Shown: in pieces, positions 11,370-15,211 of the stretch | How positions within the stretch are numbered: position 1 is the stretch's first letter | Layout: each line of letters begins with the position of its first letter | Assembly: GCF_000009965.1 (NCBI RefSeq) | Contig: NC_006624.1 | Span: 1,933,989 to 1,957,988, forward strand | Source: Thermococcus kodakarensis KOD1 | GTDB lineage: Archaea; Methanobacteriota_B; Thermococci; Thermococcales; Thermococcaceae | Length of the DNA: 24,000 nucleotides | Direction of reading: 5' to 3' | Notes under the pieces: generated by a model | Seen by the model: the letters and a program-made list of their open reading frames with translations, nothing else | The model's database searches: none | What the model was told of the DNA's origin: nothing | Made by a program: the position numbers and the translations under genes

Positions 11370-11606
11370 TCACTCGCAGAGGTCGCTCCAGCCGAACTTT
11401 TCCTTTGCGATCTTTATCAGCTGTTTGAGCTCATCCTTCTTGATGTTGACGCTTGAGCTGGCCCCGACTAGGGCAATTATGCCGTGAACTTCTTCCTGAA
11501 TCTGGATAACGTCGTCGTGAACTTTAACGACTCTCAGCTCCCTCTTTGCGGTTTCGTCCTCCCCAATCTTGAACTTGTCGTGGCCGATAACTACTGGCTC
11601 CTCCAT
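11370..11606 (-). CDS. Small hypothetical protein (78 aa)
   Basis: The likely start is the ATG at 11606, preceded by a GAGGTGG ribosome-binding site (minus strand: agtGAGGTGGtacccATG). Product: MEEPVVIGHDKFKIGEDETAKRELRVVKVHDDVIQIQEEVHG... The 118-aa track ORF (to 11726) would run antisense through the tRNA-Trp promoter and 5' exon, so the extension is probably spurious. Confidence 0.55.
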   Translation of the reverse strand: MEEPVVIGHDKFKIGEDETAKRELRVVKVHDDVIQIQEEVHGIIALVGASSSVNIKKDELKQLIKIAKEKFGWSDLCE

Positions 11607-11660
11607 GGGTACCACCTCACTATATTTTTGTAATCCAAAGTTAATAAAACTGTCGGGACA

Positions 11661-11671
11661 AAATTTATAAA
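11661..11671 (+). promoter_or_regulatory. TATA box (AAATTTATAAA) for tRNA-Trp
   Basis: Located about 28-38 nt upstream of the tRNA 5' end at 11699. Confidence 0.5.
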
Positions 11672-11698
11672 CCCCAAGCGGATAAGCTACTCCCGGAC

Positions 11699-11838
11699 GG
11701 GGGCGTGGTGTAGCCTGGTCCATCATCGCGGGCTCCAGAGGTATGAGGACTTGCGGGTTTACTGATTGGGGATGAGCCTTTGGAGCTCTGACCCGGAGAA
11801 ACCCGCGGACCGGGGTTCAAATCCCCGCGCCCCCACCA
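11699..11838 (+). tRNA. tRNA-Trp (anticodon CCA at 11735-11737) with an intron of ~62 nt and a genomically encoded 3' CCA
   Basis: The acceptor stem GGGGGCG (11699-11705) pairs with CGCCCCC (11828-11834), followed by discriminator A and CCA (11836-11838). T arm: CGGGG-TTCAAAT-CCCCG. Anticodon stem: GCGGG (11728-11732) pairs with CCCGC (11802-11806). The loop CUCCAG is interrupted after position 37. Confidence 0.9.
11739..11800 (+). ncRNA. tRNA-Trp intron carrying a box C/D guide RNA (C, D', C', D boxes). Intron boundaries are good to about 2 nt
   Basis: Box C is AUGAGGA (11743-11749), D' is CUGA (11762-11765), C' is GGAUGA (11770-11775) and D is CUGA (11788-11791). The guide upstream of D (11776-11787) pairs with 11731-11742, and the N+5 rule places the modification on C34 (11735). 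The guide upstream of D' (11753-11760) pairs with 11799-11806, and N+5 falls on position 39 (11802). Confidence 0.8.
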
Positions 11839-11849
11839 CATCAGCCCTT

Positions 11850-12660
11850 TCTTGCGAAAGCGCTGGCGGAAGAGTAGTATGCGTTTTTAATGAGCTGGCT
11901 TTTGAGCGGGTTTGCTTATCTAGTTGCTAGATTTACAGGATTTCCTCGCAGTATAGCGCTCAAAGAGCGCTAAAAAGAAAGTTCGAAATCACATTAACGG
12001 GAGATTTTAGAGTTAAACCCGCGCGAACTTGCTTTCTGAGCGAGCATACGCTCATCAACGGGCAAGTTCAGGAAGAAAGGGCACTTTTTGGTCAAGCTTT
12101 TTCTAAAAGCTTGCTGGCGAAAAGTTTCATCAAAGGTGGAATGTCCTTTTAAGCGTCCTGTTTTTAGTGATTCTTCTCATCAATTAGCAGTTTTCAAGGG
12201 GTTTGCTCACAGTATAACGCCCTTCGGGCGTTAAAAAGAAAGGAAAACCACACTTCTCTGCCCGTCTATCAAGAGAATCTAACCGCATCAGGCCAACATC
12301 AAGAAGACATTCAAACTTTTGGTGAAGCTTTTCCTAAAAGCTTCCATCGCGAAGTTTGATCAGGGTTTGTGGTTCCTTCTGAAATTGCCTTTCTACGAGG
12401 ATTTTCAAGATACACAAGTTAGCATTAGTGAATTCCCCTAAGTTTCAGCTTATCAAGAAGGAGTTTCTCTCTTTGACGCCCTACGGGCGTCGATTAAAAG
12501 TAAACTCACTCCGAAAGCTCTCACTAAAATTGAATTCACACTTAAACAAGAGCCCTTAATGAAAAATCCCTTTCAAAACCGTTTACAAACAAGAACCACA
12601 AACTTTGATGAAACTTTGCCTTGCAAAGTTTCTTTGGTCAAGCTTTTCCTAAAAGCTCCC
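11850..12660. repeat. ORF-free region built from three degenerate modules (~230-320 bp), each with two perfect short hairpins with 3-nt loops (H and P families), plus a 10-bp hairpin and a 15-nt inverted repeat
   Basis: H family: AGCGCTC-AAA-GAGCGCT (11955-11971), TAACGCCC-TTC-GGGCGTTA (12215-12233), GACGCCC-TAC-GGGCGTC (12475-12491). Each is followed by an A-rich TAAAAAG(A/T)AA-like tail. P family: CAAGCTTTT-TCT-AAAAGCTTG (12093-12113), GAAGCTTTT-CCT-AAAAGCTTC (12324-12344), AGCTTTT-CCT-AAAAGCT (12641-12657). Each is preceded by TTTGGT(C/G)A. The 10-bp hairpin is GAAACTTTGC-CTT-GCAAAGTTTC (12610-12632). Confidence 0.7.
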
Positions 12661-12704
12661 TGAAAAGTACTTAAGCCTTAACTCAAATTCTTCTTGGTGA
12701 TCGT

Positions 12705-13823
12705 ATGGATGAGTTTGAACTATTAAAACGTCTCGTCTCAATAAAGTCCCCCTTTGGAGAGGAGCACGAGATTTCGGAGTTCATAGCTTCACTCCTCGAA
12801 GAGAACGGCATACCTGTGGAGACAGTTCCCGTTGAAGGCTTTGGCGATGATGTGGTCGCTTACCTCAAAGGTAAAGGCCCGACAGTTGTTTTAAACGGGC
12901 ACATGGACACGGTGCACCTATCTCAGGGATGGACAAAGAACCCATGGGGCGAGCTTGATGGGGATAGGTTCTACGGACTCGGGAGTGCCGACATGAAAGG
13001 TGGGCTGGCAGCGCTCCTAAGTGCCTTCCTTGAGCTTTCGGAGCTTCCAAAAAATGAGAGGCCCAACGTCATCTTCACCGCTGTCAGTGATGAGGAGGGC
13101 TTTTCGAGGGGGAGTTGGGAGCTTATAAAGAGCGGCAGGCTCGACAAAGCCGACCTCGTTCTCGTTGGGGAACCAACGAACGAGAAACTCATGCTCGGTG
13201 CCAGGGGCAGGTTCGTGATTGAGGTAGGGGCAAAGGGAAAGAAGGCCCACGCGGCGAGACCTTACCTCGGTATCAATGCCATTGAAGAGCTTGCCAAGCT
13301 CGTCTCCAACCTCAACAGGATACGGATGAAGAAACACCCGAAGCTCGGAAAAGGCTCGTACTGCACCCTCTACTTCTCTGGCTCGGCCGATGGATTGAGC
13401 GTGCCAGACGAGGCAATTGCGATAATTGACAGGCACGTGGTCGTTGGTGAGGACTGGGAGAAGGTTAGAGGAGAACTCTACAGGCTCGCAGAAAGAGTTG
13501 GTGTAAGGGCCGAGCTTGAGATAGAAAAATACAGGCGCCCAACTCCTGAGATGCTCCCCTACGTTGTGAAGGAGAACAACAGGTTCGTCAGGCGGTTTAA
13601 GGAAGCGTACAGGGAAGTTGAAAGAAAAAGCGTCGAGATTACCTACGGGGCAAGCGTTGGGGACTTCAACTACTTCGGAACTTACCTGAGCAAACCGACG
13701 CTCGTCTTCGGCCCAATAGGCGGTAACTGGCACTCCGCCGACGAGTGGGTCAGTGTCTCTTCCGTCAGGAGGGTCAAGGGAATCTATCTGCGCTTCCTAA
13801 GGGCTTTGGCTGGCCTCAGATAA
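12705..13823 (+). CDS. M20 family metallo-deacylase/peptidase (ArgE/DapE/CPG2-like)
   Basis: 372 aa with M20 motifs LNGHMDTV, GSADMKGG and VGEPTNEK. A GGTGAT ribosome-binding site sits 3 nt upstream of the ATG. Confidence 0.8.
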   Translation: MDEFELLKRLVSIKSPFGEEHEISEFIASLLEENGIPVETVPVEGFGDDVVAYLKGKGPTVVLNGHMDTVHLSQGWTKNPWGELDGDRFYGLGSADMKGGLAALLSAFLELSELPKNERPNVIFTAVSDEEGFSRGSWELIKSGRLDKADLVLVGEPTNEKLMLGARGRFVIEVGAKGKKAHAARPYLGINAIEELAKLVSNLNRIRMKKHPKLGKGSYCTLYFSGSADGLSVPDEAIAIIDRHVVVGEDWEKVRGELYRLAERVGVRAELEIEKYRRPTPEMLPYVVKENNRFVRRFKEAYREVERKSVEITYGASVGDFNYFGTYLSKPTLVFGPIGGNWHSADEWVSVSSVRRVKGIYLRFLRALAGLR

Positions 13824-13903
13824 GCCGGTCTCCTCACCGGTCGGGGCAGGGAGTTCTCCTCATCGGCCAAAGCCTTTTAAGTTCTCCCCTTTTAAACTCG
13901 ACC

Positions 13904-15211
13904 ATGTTCACAATAGTCGCAAGAGCTAGAAAGGACGCGAAGGCTCTCCAGTACATAAACGAGCGTAACTATGGCGGCTTTCTCGAAGTTAAAAGCCTCG
14001 GCGGTGGGAGGAGCTTTGAGGAAATAGAGGATGGTCTTAACGAGGTTCTTGGAGAACCCTATATCCCTATATTCCTATTCGGTGAGAAAGAGAAGGCCCT
14101 CATGGAGGACATCCTTGAGGTTGTGAAGGAGAGCGAAAAGCCGTTCTACGCAAGGCTTTTGAGAACCAAGAAGGTCCGCAACATGCGCGTTGATGAGCTG
14201 TACGCCAACCTTGAGGAGATAAAGGCCCGCTTCAGGCTCGGAATCGAGTGGAAGAACGCTTACTCCCTCAATCCTGAAAATCCATTCGGGGTGGAAGTAC
14301 ACCCCGACTACGACATCTATCTGGCCGTTGGCGACGGTTTTAGAAAGGCCATGAAGTCCCTCCTTGACGTTGATCTCGGCGAGAACTCTCTCGTTCTCAG
14401 GAAGCTGATGAACCAGGAGGTTTACTTCTCGGGTCCGAATAAAGTTGCAGAGGTTAGCAAAAAGCTCGGCTTTCCGACCGAGGTTCTCTGGAGGTGTCCC
14501 TGCACGGAGGACGTTTCGCTTGAGGACCTGATGGCCGCCAACAGAGACTACATCGAGGCCTTTGCAAACGCGAGCAAAGAGTTTCTGAGGAGATTCAAAG
14601 GGTACGATATAGTTGTCCCCTGGAGCGGTGGAAAGGACTCCACGGCGGCCCTTATACTGGCAAAGGAAGCGTTTGGTGAAGTTAATGCTGTCTACGTCAG
14701 GATGGAGTACGAGATGCCAGAGACGGAGGAATACATCGAGAAGCTCGCAGGAAAGCTGGGCGTCAACCTCATCAGGGTGGACGTCCCGATGCCCATAGAG
14801 AAGTTCGGCATGCCAACCCATAGAAACCGCTGGTGCACCAAGATGAAGGTCGAGGCATTGTACAATGCCGTCAGCGAGTTTGAGAACCCACTTTTAGTCG
14901 TCGGTGACCGCGATGGAGAGAGTGCCAGGAGGCGCCTAAAGCCACCTGTAGTCGAGAGAAAAACTGACTTTGGCCAAATCCTTGAGGTTATGCCCATAAA
15001 GTTCTGGAGCGGAATGATGGTTCAGCTGTTCATCCTCATGAGGGGCTTTGATCTCCATCCGCTCTACTACGAGGGCTTCTACAGGCTCGGATGTACCGTC
15101 TGCCCGAGCCTTGCAGAATGGGAAGTCGAGCTTTTGAAAAGAAAAGGTGTGAAAGACCTCCCGCTCACCCACGCCTCCTCAGGAGCGGGAGAAGTGCGAG
15201 GGCGAGAATGA
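13904..15211 (+). CDS. PP-loop ATP pyrophosphatase of the PAPS-reductase family, with an uncharacterised N-terminal region of ~240 aa
   Basis: The PP-loop is VVPWSGGKDST (SGGKDS), and RNRWCTKMKVEAL plus GCTVCPS are typical of PAPS reductase-like proteins. The probable start is ATG 13904 (MFTIVARARKD...), about 25 nt downstream of a CTTTTAAG TATA-like element, so the mRNA may be leaderless. The track ORF from 13745 overlaps the M20 gene and its extension looks non-coding. Confidence 0.7.
   Translation: MFTIVARARKDAKALQYINERNYGGFLEVKSLGGGRSFEEIEDGLNEVLGEPYIPIFLFGEKEKALMEDILEVVKESEKPFYARLLRTKKVRNMRVDELYANLEEIKARFRLGIEWKNAYSLNPENPFGVEVHPDYDIYLAVGDGFRKAMKSLLDVDLGENSLVLRKLMNQEVYFSGPNKVAEVSKKLGFPTEVLWRCPCTEDVSLEDLMAANRDYIEAFANASKEFLRRFKGYDIVVPWSGGKDSTAALILAKEAFGEVNAVYVRMEYEMPETEEYIEKLAGKLGVNLIRVDVPMPIEKFGMPTHRNRWCTKMKVEALYNAVSEFENPLLVVGDRDGESARRRLKPPVVERKTDFGQILEVMPIKFWSGMMVQLFILMRGFDLHPLYYEGFYRLGCTVCPSLAEWEVELLKRKGVKDLPLTHASSGAGEVRGRE

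What the first reader, a model, noticed from the sequence alone, without database searches (positions are those of the whole stretch)
11850..12660. ORF-free 0.8-kb region made of three modules of perfect 3-nt-loop hairpins, with compensatory substitutions between copies
No ORF of 60 aa or more occurs on either strand for about 860 bp between tRNA-Trp and the M20 gene, which is unusual for this compact genome. The region is not random, and two hairpin families each recur three times.

H family, spaced about 260 bp apart:
- AGCGCTC/GAGCGCT (11955-11971)
- AACGCCC/GGGCGTT (12216-12232)
- GACGCCC/GGGCGTC (12475-12491)

The three H copies differ at stem positions 1, 2 and 6, and every change is matched on the opposite arm (A:T to G:C, G:C to A:T, T:A to C:G). 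All three therefore stay perfect 7-bp stems with 3-nt loops. Each is followed by an A-rich TAAAAAG(A/T)AA-like tail.

P family:
- CAAGCTTTT-TCT-AAAAGCTTG (12093-12113)
- GAAGCTTTT-CCT-AAAAGCTTC (12324-12344)
- AGCTTTT-CCT-AAAAGCT (12641-12657)

The closing pair of the P hairpins is swapped from C:G to G:C between copies 1 and 2. Each copy is preceded by TTTGGT(C/G)A.

Extra small hairpins of the same style occur at TCTAG-TTG-CTAGA (11920-11932) and GAGCG-AGCATA-CGCTC (12039-12054).

Compensatory change argues for selection on pairing (RNA hairpins or DNA cruciforms) or on dyad-symmetric protein-binding sites. It does not match CRISPR, terminator, oriC ORB or tRNA-like patterns that I know. At about 40% G+C it is unlike the GC-rich structural RNAs of hyperthermophiles. 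Possible explanations are a cluster of small RNAs, a family of palindromic (REP- or MITE-like) elements, or an array of operator sites.
Basis: seen in the sequence. Interest (0 to 1): 0.65.

Follow-up and report, generated by a model that had tools for sequence, protein, structure and literature searches.

The report
Palindromic repeat modules behind tRNA genes
The gene-free stretch after the tRNA-Trp gene of Thermococcus kodakarensis is a tandem array of three members of an apparently undescribed family of hairpin-rich repeat modules, found in several Thermococcus genomes only just downstream of tRNA genes; at least one module carries an active promoter for an orphan small RNA.

Summary
There are 7 perfect hairpins in 865 bp, against 0.25 expected by chance.

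The window is Thermococcus kodakarensis KOD1. The region holds three tandem modules: A (11839-12103), B (12104-12334) and C (12335-12649). Each module is a 230-315-bp imperfect inverted repeat with a GC-rich H hairpin at its apex.

Four module types recur at 60-85% identity directly downstream of other tRNA genes in T. stetteri, T. peptonophilus and several Thermococcus MAGs. All 13 P sites that have a nearby tRNA lie on its 3' side. T. stetteri keeps the same A-B-C array.

Blocks around P and F are conserved above four-fold-site level. H stems change by compensatory double substitutions.

A published transcription start site (genome 1946296, minus strand = window 12308) lies 26 nt from the centre of P2. 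P therefore behaves as a symmetric BRE-TATA promoter, and oligo-T runs in both arms would cut transcripts short.

Best reading: an old, BIME/MITE-like family of mosaic repeats tied to tRNA flanks, with promoter and terminator activity. Its cellular role is unproven.

Unexpectedly, the same 25-29-nt P unit sits inside tRNA introns of DPANN archaea.

The parts
11699..11838 (+). tRNA-Trp gene (TKt41) with a 62-nt intron carrying a C/D-box sRNA-like element (11739-11793). It is the anchor of the array.
   Evidence: Sequence reading. The Rfam sR3-like hit is in the intron. The length and position match TKt41, genome 1945687-1945826. ARAGORN with introns detects the orthologues.
11839..12103 (.). 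Module A. It holds a trailer with a small hairpin and the G box (AGCGCTGGCGGAA, 11859-11871), a T5 run (11884-11888), the K box (11899-11913) pairing with 12015-12027, H1 at the apex, and A5 (11972-11976).
   Evidence: It folds as one long hairpin with the ends paired, z = -3.8. It is 72-79% identical to copies behind tRNA-Val, tRNA-Ala and tRNA-Trp in a Thermococcaceae MAG and in T. stetteri.
11954..11972 (.). H1 hairpin, TAGCGCTC-AAA-GAGCGCTA (8 bp).
   Evidence: The T. stetteri orthologue is TAGTGCTC-GGA-GAGCACTA, a compensatory C:G to T:A change.
12093..12113 (.). P1 palindrome, CAAGCTTTT-TCT-AAAAGCTTG, at the junction of modules A and B.
   Evidence: It lies in a block at least 90% identical to T. 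stetteri (12085-12155).
12104..12334 (.). Module B. It holds a half-F (12113-12135), a T5 run (12161-12165), H2 at the apex, A5 (12233-12237), and the end repeats GAATGTC / GACATTC.
   Evidence: It folds as one long hairpin, z = -5.0. It is 81% identical to T. stetteri and 83% to the copy behind tRNA-Gln in the MAG.
12215..12233 (.). H2 hairpin, TAACGCCC-TTC-GGGCGTTA (8 bp).
   Evidence: The stem is invariant and the loop free in 8 type-B copies.
12233..12308 (-). Orphan sRNA. The published primary TSS at genome 1946296(-) corresponds to window 12308. The 3' end is inferred at the T5 run (window 12237-12233).
   Evidence: Jaeger et al. 2014, Table S6. The coordinate offset is fixed by tRNA-Trp and checked with Tko-sR65. 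G+C is 0.43 against the published 0.44. The 3' end is inferred, not shown.
12324..12344 (.). P2 palindrome, GAAGCTTTT-CCT-AAAAGCTTC. It acts as the promoter for the minus-strand sRNA. Its centre (12334) is 26 nt upstream of the TSS.
   Evidence: The two other promoters in the window with mapped starts have TATA centres 24.5 and 28.5 nt from the TSS. It lies in the conserved block 12298-12344.
12335..12649 (.). Module C. It has a 39-nt terminal inverted repeat (12337-12375 with 12593-12631), H3 at the apex and A5 (12562-12566).
   Evidence: Inverted repeat I1. Fold z = -6.7. Homologues lie behind tRNA-Val, tRNA-Gln and others. The middle evolves at about the neutral rate while the ends are conserved.
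12475..12491 (.). H3 hairpin, GACGCCC-TAC-GGGCGTC (7 bp).
   Evidence: T. stetteri has GATGCCC-GAA-GGGTATC, with one compensatory pair and one G.T.
12610..12632 (.). F palindrome, GAAACTTTGC-CTT-GCAAAGTTTC (10 bp), preceded by TTTGAT.
   Evidence: In other loci F starts 2-3 nt after the tRNA 3' end. The stem is invariant and the loop free in T. stetteri and L077.
12641..12657 (.). P3 palindrome, AGCTTTT-CCT-AAAAGCT, the distal end of the array.
   Evidence: In the JGI contig L077 it is a perfect 9-bp form, CAAGCTTTT-GGA-AAAAGCTTG.
12658..12704 (+). Conserved leader of the M20 gene. It holds a BRE/TATA-like GAAAAGTACTTAAGCC (12663-12678), a Shine-Dalgarno GGTGAT (12695-12700), and the ATG at 12705.
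   Evidence: The block 12587-12689 is at least 90% identical to T. stetteri and is also present in L077. Its promoter role is inferred.

Best explanation
The region is a tandem array of three members (types A, B and C) of an old family of mosaic repeats that lives specifically in the 3' flank of tRNA genes in a subset of Thermococcus.

Architecture. Each module is a 230-315-bp imperfect inverted repeat with a GC-rich apex hairpin (H). Modules are joined by 21-23-bp AT-rich palindromes (P = SAAGCTTTT-N3-AAAAGCTTS; F = GAAACTTTNC-N3/4-GNAAAGTTTC), each followed by AYCAAAAG.

Mechanism, shown. P2 lies at promoter distance from a mapped primary transcription start.

Mechanism, inferred. P is a symmetric BRE-TATA-BRE cassette that recruits TBP/TFB. 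Each arm of each module carries a T4-T5 run on the strand read outward from the adjacent P. Transcripts started at P, or reading through from the tRNA gene, would therefore be cut to short orphan RNAs of about 35-100 nt. The H core would stay essentially untranscribed. The last F-P block sits directly upstream of the M20 promoter and is conserved with it.

Origin, inferred. The modules spread and were shuffled among tRNA flanks, either by a transposition-like process or by recombination at the shared palindromes. They are now kept by selection on the junction blocks and on H pairing. They behave like archaeal counterparts of bacterial BIME/REP arrays or domesticated MITEs rather than like RNA genes.
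For: Organism and coordinates.
- The window is T. kodakarensis KOD1. The M20 protein occurs on a contig of 2,088,737 bp.
- tRNA-Trp and the C/D sRNA Tko-sR65 both fit one offset, genome = window + 1933988.

Palindromic modules.
- 7 perfect hairpins against 0.25 expected.
- Each module folds end-to-end, with z = -3.8, -5.0 and -6.7.
- The two arms align at about 68% complementarity.

Dispersed family tied to tRNA genes.
- The genome scan found P in 11 Thermococcus/Thermococcaceae loci.
- Module-length homology of 72-86% was found behind tRNA-Val, Ala, Pro, Gln, Arg, Asp and Trp.
- All 13 P sites with a nearby tRNA are on its 3' side.
- T. peptonophilus has tRNA-Gln followed by C then A.

Age and constraint.
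- T. stetteri has the syntenic A-B-C array.
- Four-fold sites are 60-67% identical, module B is 81%, and five blocks around the tRNA trailer, P1, P2 and F-P3 are at least 90%.
- Copies within the MAG are as diverged as copies between genomes.
- H pairing is preserved by compensatory doubles.

Promoter.
- The published TSS 1946296(-) corresponds to window 12308, 26 nt from the centre of P2.
- The sRNA G+C fits termination at the T5 run.
- In the same published table, several other orphan TSSs lie about 205-265 nt beyond tRNA 3' ends and point back at them. That is where a first-module P would place them.

Not coding. Orthologous indels of 1, 2 and 21 nt.
Against: - Only one TSS links P to promoter activity. 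No plus-strand start from any P is documented, and the full TSS table was not readable.
- TTTTAGGA is a poor TATA box.
- No target-site duplications, no autonomous partner element and no near-identical burst of copies were found, so mobility is inferred only from distribution and mosaicism.
- Other KOD1 copies could not be read, so the link to the other orphan TSSs rests on distances alone.
- The long-range stems are almost invariant, so they say nothing for or against pairing.
- Nothing shows what benefit, if any, the array gives the cell.
Confidence: 0.55

Rival explanations
1. The arrays are functional boundary elements of tRNA genes. They would be AT-rich, A-tract-rich platforms bound by chromatin proteins (TrmBL2, histones) that stall Smc-ScpAB and insulate the strongly transcribed tRNA gene from its neighbour. 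In this reading P, F and H are protein-binding or structural sites, and the promoter activity is a side effect.
For: - The arrays sit strictly on the tRNA 3' side in 13 of 13 cases.
- The junction blocks are under purifying selection, and the array order is kept in T. stetteri.
- The region is 59% A+T with 24 runs of four or more A or T.
- In KOD1, TrmBL2 and Smc co-occupy tens of AT-rich, A-tract-rich loci, including a 1.9-kb intergenic region (PMC11840125).
Against: - No binding data for this locus could be read.
- Many Thermococcus species lack the array behind tRNA-Trp, so it is dispensable.
- The H stems co-vary instead of keeping their sequence, which does not fit a sequence-specific site.
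Confidence: 0.15
2. Each module is a gene for a structured non-coding RNA of 230-315 nt that folds into a long hairpin. P and F would be processing hairpins, and the array a polycistronic precursor.
For: - Folding z-scores are strong.
- H pairing co-varies.
- There is one G.U-compatible change on the plus strand in each of L033 and T. stetteri H3.
- The region is transcribed at least in part.
Against: - T5 runs lie inside the arms on both strands, and oligo-T is the archaeal terminator.
- The mapped TSS is inside module B, and its transcript would stop before H2.
- Arm mismatches show no strand-specific wobble bias: G.T 91 against A.C 77.
- Only 2 of 49 predicted pairs show a double change in module B.
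- No Rfam family matches.
- At about 41% G+C such helices would be weak at 85 C.
Confidence: 0.08
3. P, and perhaps F, are operators for a dimeric transcription factor. That factor would control the M20 gene and the flanking promoters, and the upstream copies would be auxiliary or decoy sites.
For: - The P and F stems are conserved in sequence while the 3-bp centre varies freely, as expected for a dyad site with an uncontacted spacer.
- F-P3 lies directly upstream of a conserved BRE/TATA-like box of M20 and is at least 90% conserved.
Against: - Most copies in other genomes are not next to a co-oriented gene.
- The same motif follows many unrelated tRNA genes.
- It does not explain H or the long inverted repeats.
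- No known Thermococcales regulator motif (TGM, SurR, Phr) resembles it. This comparison is from my own knowledge and was not tested.
Confidence: 0.07
4. The modules are decayed remains of plasmids or viruses that integrated into tRNA genes. They would be left behind after repeated integration and deletion.
For: - tRNA 3' ends are the usual attachment sites of archaeal integrative elements (established knowledge).
- Arrays differ in number and order between genomes.
- They are absent from some species.
Against: - No partial tRNA direct repeats bound the modules.
- There are no integrase fragments and no ORFs.
- There is no similarity to 72,556 plasmids or 50,697 phage records, even in sensitive mode.
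- The same modules follow seven different tRNA species.
- The order is conserved in T. stetteri and the blocks are conserved above the neutral level.
Confidence: 0.07

Closest known systems
BIMEs / REP arrays of enterobacteria (bacterial interspersed mosaic elements)
   Same: They are intergenic and placed just after genes. They are built as mosaics of a few kinds of short palindromic units joined by conserved linkers. The number and order of units vary between loci and strains. The hairpin stems are preserved while the loops vary. They have side effects on termination and transcript ends.
   Different: The host is an archaeon and there is no sequence similarity. The units here are nested in 230-315-bp inverted repeats and are restricted to tRNA 3' flanks. 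The junction palindrome has promoter activity. No RAYT-type transposase has been linked to them (not tested).
MITEs (for example Sulfolobus SM elements and haloarchaeal PATEs, the IS200/IS605-derived elements)
   Same: They are non-coding, 200-300 bp long, have terminal inverted repeats (39 nt in module C), fold as long hairpins, are dispersed as paralogues, and are present or absent between species.
   Different: No target-site duplication, parent IS or near-identical copies were found. Copies are 60-85% identical and stay orthologous across species. The location is exclusively tRNA-proximal. Modules share their end palindromes instead of each having its own.
Archaeal BRE-TATA promoters, whose orientation is set by BRE
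   Same: An AT-rich 8-9-bp core is flanked by a purine-rich hexamer. A mapped start lies 26 nt from its centre, as at the tRNA-Trp and Tko-sR65 promoters in the same window.
   Different: P is a perfect dyad, so BRE-like hexamers flank the core on both sides. The core (TTTTAGGA) departs from TTTAWATA. Only one direction of firing is documented.
Eukaryotic tDNA boundary elements and tRNA-gene-targeted transposons (Ty3, Dictyostelium TRE)
   Same: Repeats accumulate specifically beside tRNA genes, and chromatin-boundary behaviour is possible.
   Different: The eukaryotic cases use RNA polymerase III factors, which archaea lack. There is no evidence here for retrotransposition or for boundary activity.
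Transposed non-canonical tRNA introns of Thermoproteales and ARMAN/Micrarchaeota
   Same: The 25-29-nt P unit (hairpin plus ACCAAAA) recurs inside introns at D-loop, anticodon-loop and T-loop positions of DPANN tRNA genes, which looks like copy-and-paste.
   Different: In Thermococcus the unit lies outside the tRNA body, in DNA that is mostly not co-transcribed with it. Homology as opposed to convergence is not established.

Membership tests
MITE | Terminal inverted repeats on a short non-coding element | tested here: met
   Module C has 39-nt arms at 77% complementarity. All three modules fold end-to-end.
MITE | Target-site duplications flanking each copy | tested here: not met
   No direct repeats bound the modules. 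Neighbouring modules share one palindrome, and the 3-nt centres differ.
MITE | Many similar copies at unrelated sites, and a related autonomous IS | tested here: inconclusive
   Copies are dispersed but only behind tRNA genes, and they are 60-86% identical, apart from one 99% pair at contig ends. No parent IS was searched for genome-wide, because the KOD1 genome was not readable outside the window.
REP/BIME | Mosaic arrays of short palindromic units with conserved linkers in intergenic DNA | tested here: met
   Units F, P and H and module types A-D occur in varying order: A-B-C in KOD1 and T. stetteri, B-A-B/C-D in L038, and C-A in T. peptonophilus.
REP/BIME | An associated RAYT (TnpA-REP) gene, and sequence relationship to known REPs | not tested
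   No transposase search of the genome was possible. There was no Rfam hit and no plasmid or phage match.
IS200/IS605-derived PATE | Subterminal hairpins at both ends, insertion 3' of a fixed 4-5-nt target, no TIR and no TSD | tested here: inconclusive
   Hairpins sit at the module ends, and TTGAT precedes F. However, the ends are true inverted repeats, and no TnpA or TnpB link was examined.
Archaeal BRE-TATA promoter | An AT-rich box centred about 24-29 nt upstream of a primary TSS, with an adjacent BRE | tested here: met
   The centre of P2 (12334) is 26 nt from TSS 12308(-). For comparison, the distances are 28.5 nt at tRNA-Trp and 24.5 nt at Tko-sR65.
Archaeal BRE-TATA promoter | Binding of TBP/TFB and initiation in vitro, and firing in both directions | not testable with these tools
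   This needs in vitro transcription or the complete dRNA-seq table, which was cut in the stored copy.
Bacterial-type intrinsic terminator | A GC-rich hairpin followed by a T run on the transcribed strand | tested here: not met
   H is followed by TAAAAAG on the plus strand. On the minus strand the T run comes before H, not after it.
CRISPR array | Identical 24-48-nt direct repeats at regular spacing, separated by unique spacers | tested here: not met
   Repeat spacings are 231/315 and 261/259 nt, and the sequence between repeats is itself homologous between modules and loci. The only Rfam CRISPR hit has E = 2.2.
C/D box or other curated RNA family | A match to an Rfam covariance model | tested here: not met
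   Nothing in 11839-12704 reaches a gathering score or a meaningful E-value. The only real C/D hits are in the tRNA-Trp intron and at 13814-13867.
Protein-coding small ORFs | A reading frame kept between orthologues | tested here: not met
   The longest ORF inside the region is 48 aa. KOD1 and T. stetteri differ by indels of 1, 2 and 21 nt and further gaps.

The most novel reading that the evidence does not exclude
The P/F unit (a 9-10-bp AT-rich hairpin followed by AYCAAAA) may be a small mobile palindrome that targets tRNA genes and is shared across archaeal phyla.

In DPANN archaea the splicing endonuclease is permissive, so the unit can land inside the tRNA body and persist as D-loop, anticodon-loop and T-loop introns. 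In Thermococcus the endonuclease is strict, so only copies outside the tRNA body survive. They would then pile up, with their cargo, as module arrays in the 3' flank.

This would link the origin of non-canonical tRNA introns to a DNA- or RNA-level hairpin element. It would also explain why about a third of the orphan sRNAs of T. kodakarensis sit beside tRNA genes.
Probability: 0.12. Interest if true: 0.85.

Novelty: new variant of a known kind. Interest (0 to 1): 0.55.

Why it matters
- T. kodakarensis is the main genetic model for hyperthermophilic archaea. Its 55 orphan sRNAs were reported as mostly species-specific and of unknown origin. If many arise from promoters carried by one repeat family behind tRNA genes, they are by-products or functions of that family rather than independent genes.
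- The family would be an archaeal counterpart of bacterial BIME/REP arrays. Its placement rule (tRNA 3' flanks only) points either to a targeting mechanism or to a role in ending and insulating tRNA transcription. Both can be tested in a tractable organism.
- The perfect-dyad promoter offers a natural test of how BRE symmetry sets transcription direction.
- The recurrence of the same hairpin unit in DPANN tRNA introns bears on how non-canonical tRNA introns spread.

Tried and rejected
Searches that found nothing useful
- Rfam at gathering and at lenient thresholds: nothing in the region.
- Similarity to plasmids and phages in sensitive mode: no match.
- Viral-contig scans for P and F: only low-complexity or coding repeats in AT-rich giant-virus MAGs and one archaeal-looking contig. 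F gave none.
- Literature searches for a described Thermococcus tRNA-flank repeat, MITE or DPANN intron hairpin found nothing specific.

Data that could not be reached
- Other KOD1 arrays, sought through the triosephosphate isomerase gene next to tRNA-Gln. The KOD1 protein was not among the named hits, and the candidate contig was a 958-nt fragment matching T. peptonophilus.
- The full TSS table of Jaeger et al. was cut before 1.9 Mb, so starts for M20 and any plus-strand starts could not be checked.
- ChIP-seq peak lists for TrmBL2 and Smc are not held.

Ideas considered and dropped
- IS6-type ends. An 8-nt resemblance (GCAAAGTT) was judged too short, and the GG...cTGTt...caaa signature is absent.
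- A C/D-box reading of TGATGA...CTGA around F-P3: no C'/D' boxes, and it is not conserved in the MAG.
- Reading P(RC)+ACCA as a tRNA minihelix: the GGT was forced by my search pattern, and F has AUCA instead.
- A strand-specific wobble test for RNA-level selection gave no bias.
Full report
**What the window is**

The gene order is aldehyde:ferredoxin oxidoreductase, class V fructose-1,6-bisphosphatase, a small ORF, tRNA-Trp, M20 peptidase, PAPS-reductase-like, Lon, TldD/PmbA, and a cyclodextrin glucanotransferase-like amylase. The M20 protein occurs on a contig of 2,088,737 bp. Both facts identify Thermococcus kodakarensis KOD1.

The 140-nt intron-containing tRNA-Trp at 11699-11838 matches TKt41 at genome 1945687-1945826 (Jaeger et al. 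2014, Table S8). This gives the offset genome = window + 1933988. I checked the offset with a second anchor. The published start of the C/D-box sRNA Tko-sR65 (1947856, minus strand) predicts window 13868, and a C/D-box sRNA is found at 13814-13867 on the minus strand.

Yes. Perfect hairpins with a stem of at least 7 and a loop of 3-4 number seven in 11840-12704 and three in the other 23 kb. Dinucleotide shuffles of the region give a mean of 0.25 and never more than 3. The P motif occurs three times, with none expected. No ORF reaches 60 aa.

Two small hairpins are off by one base.

**Anatomy**

The region is three tandem modules: A (11839-12103), B (12104-12334) and C (12335-12649). Each module is a long imperfect inverted repeat whose two ends pair and whose apex is the GC-rich H hairpin. 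Single-strand folding gives z-scores of -3.8, -5.0 and -6.7 against shuffles. Aligning each left arm to the reverse complement of its right arm gives about 68% complementarity.

Modules are joined by the P palindromes. F and P are related to each other. Both are AARCTTT...AAAGYTT dyads followed by AYCAAAAG, and this combination forms the outer part of each module's terminal inverted repeat.

**A dispersed family tied to tRNA genes**

A scan of one genome per prokaryotic species for GGTNAAGCTTTTNCTAAAAGC returned 60 loci. Eleven are Thermococcus or Thermococcaceae. One MAG (DJKA121_NP-J24_bin.11) carries at least 12 copies on seven stretches of six contigs.

BLAST and alignments show module-length homology to the window. 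This defines four module types, A to D, each with its own H variant. Arrays start immediately after the 3' end of tRNA-Val (three isoacceptors), Ala (two), Pro, Gln, Arg, Asp and Trp. They begin either with F, 2-3 nt after CCA, or with the trailer-plus-G-box of type A. All 13 P sites that have a tRNA in the fetched DNA lie on its 3' side. T. peptonophilus has tRNA-Gln followed by C and then A.

The tRNA-Trp locus itself varies between genomes:
- A-B-C in KOD1 and in the fully syntenic T. stetteri locus.
- B-A-B/C-D in the MAG (L038).
- A different set in L015, although its upstream genes are 82% identical to KOD1.
- No array in Thermococcus sp. 4557 or in two other genomes, where homology stops at the tRNA 3' end.

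Public short-read assemblies of KOD1 and of a T. stetteri-like strain both break inside F-P3 (L001 starts at window 12620; L076 is similar). This is expected if near-identical copies exist elsewhere in those genomes. That is an inference.

**Age and constraint**

Between KOD1 and T. stetteri, four-fold degenerate sites in three flanking genes are 60-67% identical. Module A is 72% identical, B 81%, and C 65% (with gaps). Five blocks are at least 90% identical:
- the tRNA trailer with the G box (11839-11873);
- P1 with the start of module B (12085-12155);
- 12163-12194;
- the end of module B with P2 (12298-12344);
- the end of module C with F, P3 and the M20 leader (12587-12689).

Copies within the MAG are as diverged from each other (56-86%) as from KOD1, apart from one 99% pair at contig ends. 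The family is therefore old and its junction blocks are under purifying selection. It is not a recent burst. Orthologous indels of 1, 2 and 21 nt exclude coding.

**Compensatory change**

On 21 homologous H sites, 93.9% of cells pair and five of seven pairs show changes on both sides. No shuffle reaches the observed covariation score, and slid controls collapse to 30-44% pairing.

Two limits apply. The module types count as only a few independent events, and some sites from other species were picked by eye.

More telling are the orthologues:
- H1 is GCGCTC/GAGCGC in KOD1 and GTGCTC/GAGCAC in T. stetteri.
- H3 is GACGCCC/GGGCGTC in KOD1 and GATGCCC/GGGTATC in T. stetteri.
- Half-changed intermediates exist (L055, L052, T. 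peptonophilus).

Loops vary freely in H, P and F.

P and F stems are conserved in sequence. The C:G to G:C swap at the P closing pair goes with the type of module that follows, and that pair is mismatched in several copies.

Arm mismatches show no strand-specific wobble bias, with G.T at 91 and A.C at 77. The long-range stems of module B are almost invariant. Nothing therefore points to RNA-level selection on either strand.

From established knowledge, reverse gyrase keeps hyperthermophile DNA positively supercoiled, which disfavours cruciforms. Template-switch correction of quasipalindromes can symmetrise arms without selection. What keeps H paired is therefore open.

**Transcription**

Jaeger et al. 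list an orphan sRNA start at 1946296 on the minus strand, conserved only in T. kodakarensis. This is window 12308, a G preceded by T, 26 nt from the centre of P2. The two other promoters in the window with mapped starts have TATA centres 28.5 nt (tRNA-Trp) and 24.5 nt (Tko-sR65) upstream.

Read on the minus strand, P2 gives GAAGCT (BRE position), then TTTAGGAA (TATA position), then CACCAAAAGTTT (an AT-rich proximal element). Because P is a dyad, the same arrangement faces the other way.

The transcript would meet TTTTCCTTTCTTTTT after about 60-75 nt, just before H2. Its G+C to that point (0.43) matches the published 0.44. Every module arm carries a T4-T5 run on the strand read outward from the nearest P. 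Module-length transcripts are therefore unlikely, and H lies between convergent stops.

In the same published table, many other orphan starts lie beside tRNA genes. Several point back at the tRNA from 208, 250, 262 and 265 nt beyond its 3' end. The first P in the arrays I could read lies 229-297 nt beyond the tRNA, which predicts starts at 203-271 nt. This fits, but it rests on distances only, because I could not read those KOD1 loci.

**The gene side**

F-P3 and the following CCCTGAAAAGTACTTAAGC are almost identical in KOD1, T. stetteri and a metagenome contig. In that contig P3 is a perfect 9-bp palindrome with a different centre. Either P3 or the GAAAAG-TACTTAAG box could be the M20 promoter. 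The start site is not available to me.

**Interpretation**

I file the region as a new variant of interspersed mosaic palindromic repeats. It is closest in logic to enterobacterial BIME/REP arrays and to old, domesticated MITEs. Its distinguishing features are a strict tRNA 3'-flank location and a junction palindrome with promoter activity.

What is shown:
- the architecture;
- the family and its tie to tRNA genes;
- conservation above the neutral level;
- H covariation;
- one promoter-distance TSS.

What is inferred:
- bidirectional firing from P;
- termination at the T runs;
- how the modules spread;
- any benefit to the cell.

The rivals are a tRNA-gene boundary or TrmBL2-Smc platform, structured RNA genes, an operator array, and remnants of integrated elements. 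They are weighed in their own sections.

**An unexpected finding outside the question**

About 25 of the 60 scan hits are DPANN archaea (Micrarchaeota, Bilamarchaeaceae, Altiarchaeota, Aenigmarchaeota, Nanoarchaeota and others). They carry the same 25-29 nt, including the flank (GTTTTGGT-SAAGCTTTTNCTAAAAGCTTS).

The Rfam tRNA model and intron-aware ARAGORN place the motif as follows:
- inside tRNA genes (L024 tRNA-Asn, L044 tRNA-Gln, L048 tRNA-Leu);
- 3-6 nt after tRNA 3' ends (L029, L053, L054);
- 14 nt before a tRNA-Leu (L046).

Reading further loci by eye shows the unit at the edge of introns in D-loops, anticodon loops and T-loops. There it is followed by a second small hairpin, SACC-AAAAC-GGTS, which itself co-varies. 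F-like hairpins accompany it.

Micrarchaeota are known to have heavily disrupted tRNA genes and a permissive splicing endonuclease (PMC3239211). I found no description of this shared unit.

Bacterial hits look like chance or terminator palindromes. Viral hits are low-complexity repeats. Whether the DPANN and Thermococcus units are homologous or convergent is open. The most novel reading is given as the novel case.

Noticed in passing
L024 6954-7083; L044 2901-3072; L048 1396-1552; L029 74-189; L053 4118-4216; L054 1682-1832; L036 2150-2230; L039 3880-3960; L018 3150-3240; L059 2600-2700: In DPANN archaea the same 25-29-nt P unit (hairpin plus ACCAAAAC, then a second co-varying hairpin SACC-AAAAC-GGTS) sits inside tRNA introns at D-loop, anticodon-loop and T-loop positions, or abuts tRNA ends. 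One Micrarchaeota MAG (CAZBWC01) has six copies. In two loci (L009, L051) the unit lies directly upstream of what reads as a C/D-box sRNA.
   Followed up: partly
window 13814-13867 (-): A C/D-box sRNA (Tko-sR65; published TSS 1947856 = window 13868). It lies antisense to the last codons of the M20 gene (which ends at 13823) and inside the longest GTG-started reading of the next ORF (13745-15211). That ORF's real start is therefore probably further downstream.
   Followed up: partly
window 11739-11793 (+): The tRNA-Trp intron carries a C/D-box sRNA-like element (Rfam sR3, 35.7 bits, below the gathering score). This is a known feature of euryarchaeal tRNA-Trp. Default ARAGORN misses the whole tRNA gene because of the 62-nt intron.
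   Followed up: yes
L001 (starts at window 12620) and L076 (starts 102 nt before the T. stetteri-like M20 gene): Independent short-read assemblies break inside the F-P3 block. This suggests that near-identical F-P copies exist elsewhere in those genomes.
   Followed up: no
KOD1 genome coordinates from Jaeger 2014, Tables S6 and S8 (for example 307013+, 655621+, 1127031/285/691+, 1311594-, 1320419-, 2049165/712+): Roughly a third of the published orphan sRNA starts lie within about 1 kb of tRNA genes. Several are convergent with the tRNA at 208-265 nt beyond its 3' end, and others are co-directional at 67-85 nt. This is as expected if module arrays flank many KOD1 tRNA genes.
   Followed up: partly
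L033 6409-6567 and L052 3727-3884: Two contigs of the same MAG end in stretches that are 99% identical (end of module B, P, start of a G-box module) and then diverge. This could be a recent duplication, gene conversion, or an assembly fork at a repeat.
   Followed up: no
L003, L011, L027 (Novacetimonas hansenii) and L022 (N. pomaceti): Acetic-acid bacteria carry a repeated GGTGAAGCTTTT(C/T)CTAAAAGCTTC palindrome followed by a second hairpin and T runs. It looks like a repeated intergenic terminator element. It is unrelated to the archaeal contexts apart from the shared sequence.
   Followed up: no
window 11370-11726 (-): The 118-aa ORF overlaps the tRNA-Trp promoter and the 5' end of the tRNA gene. 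In relatives the called gene at this position is only 78 aa (57 aa in one), so the real start is probably an internal codon.
   Followed up: no
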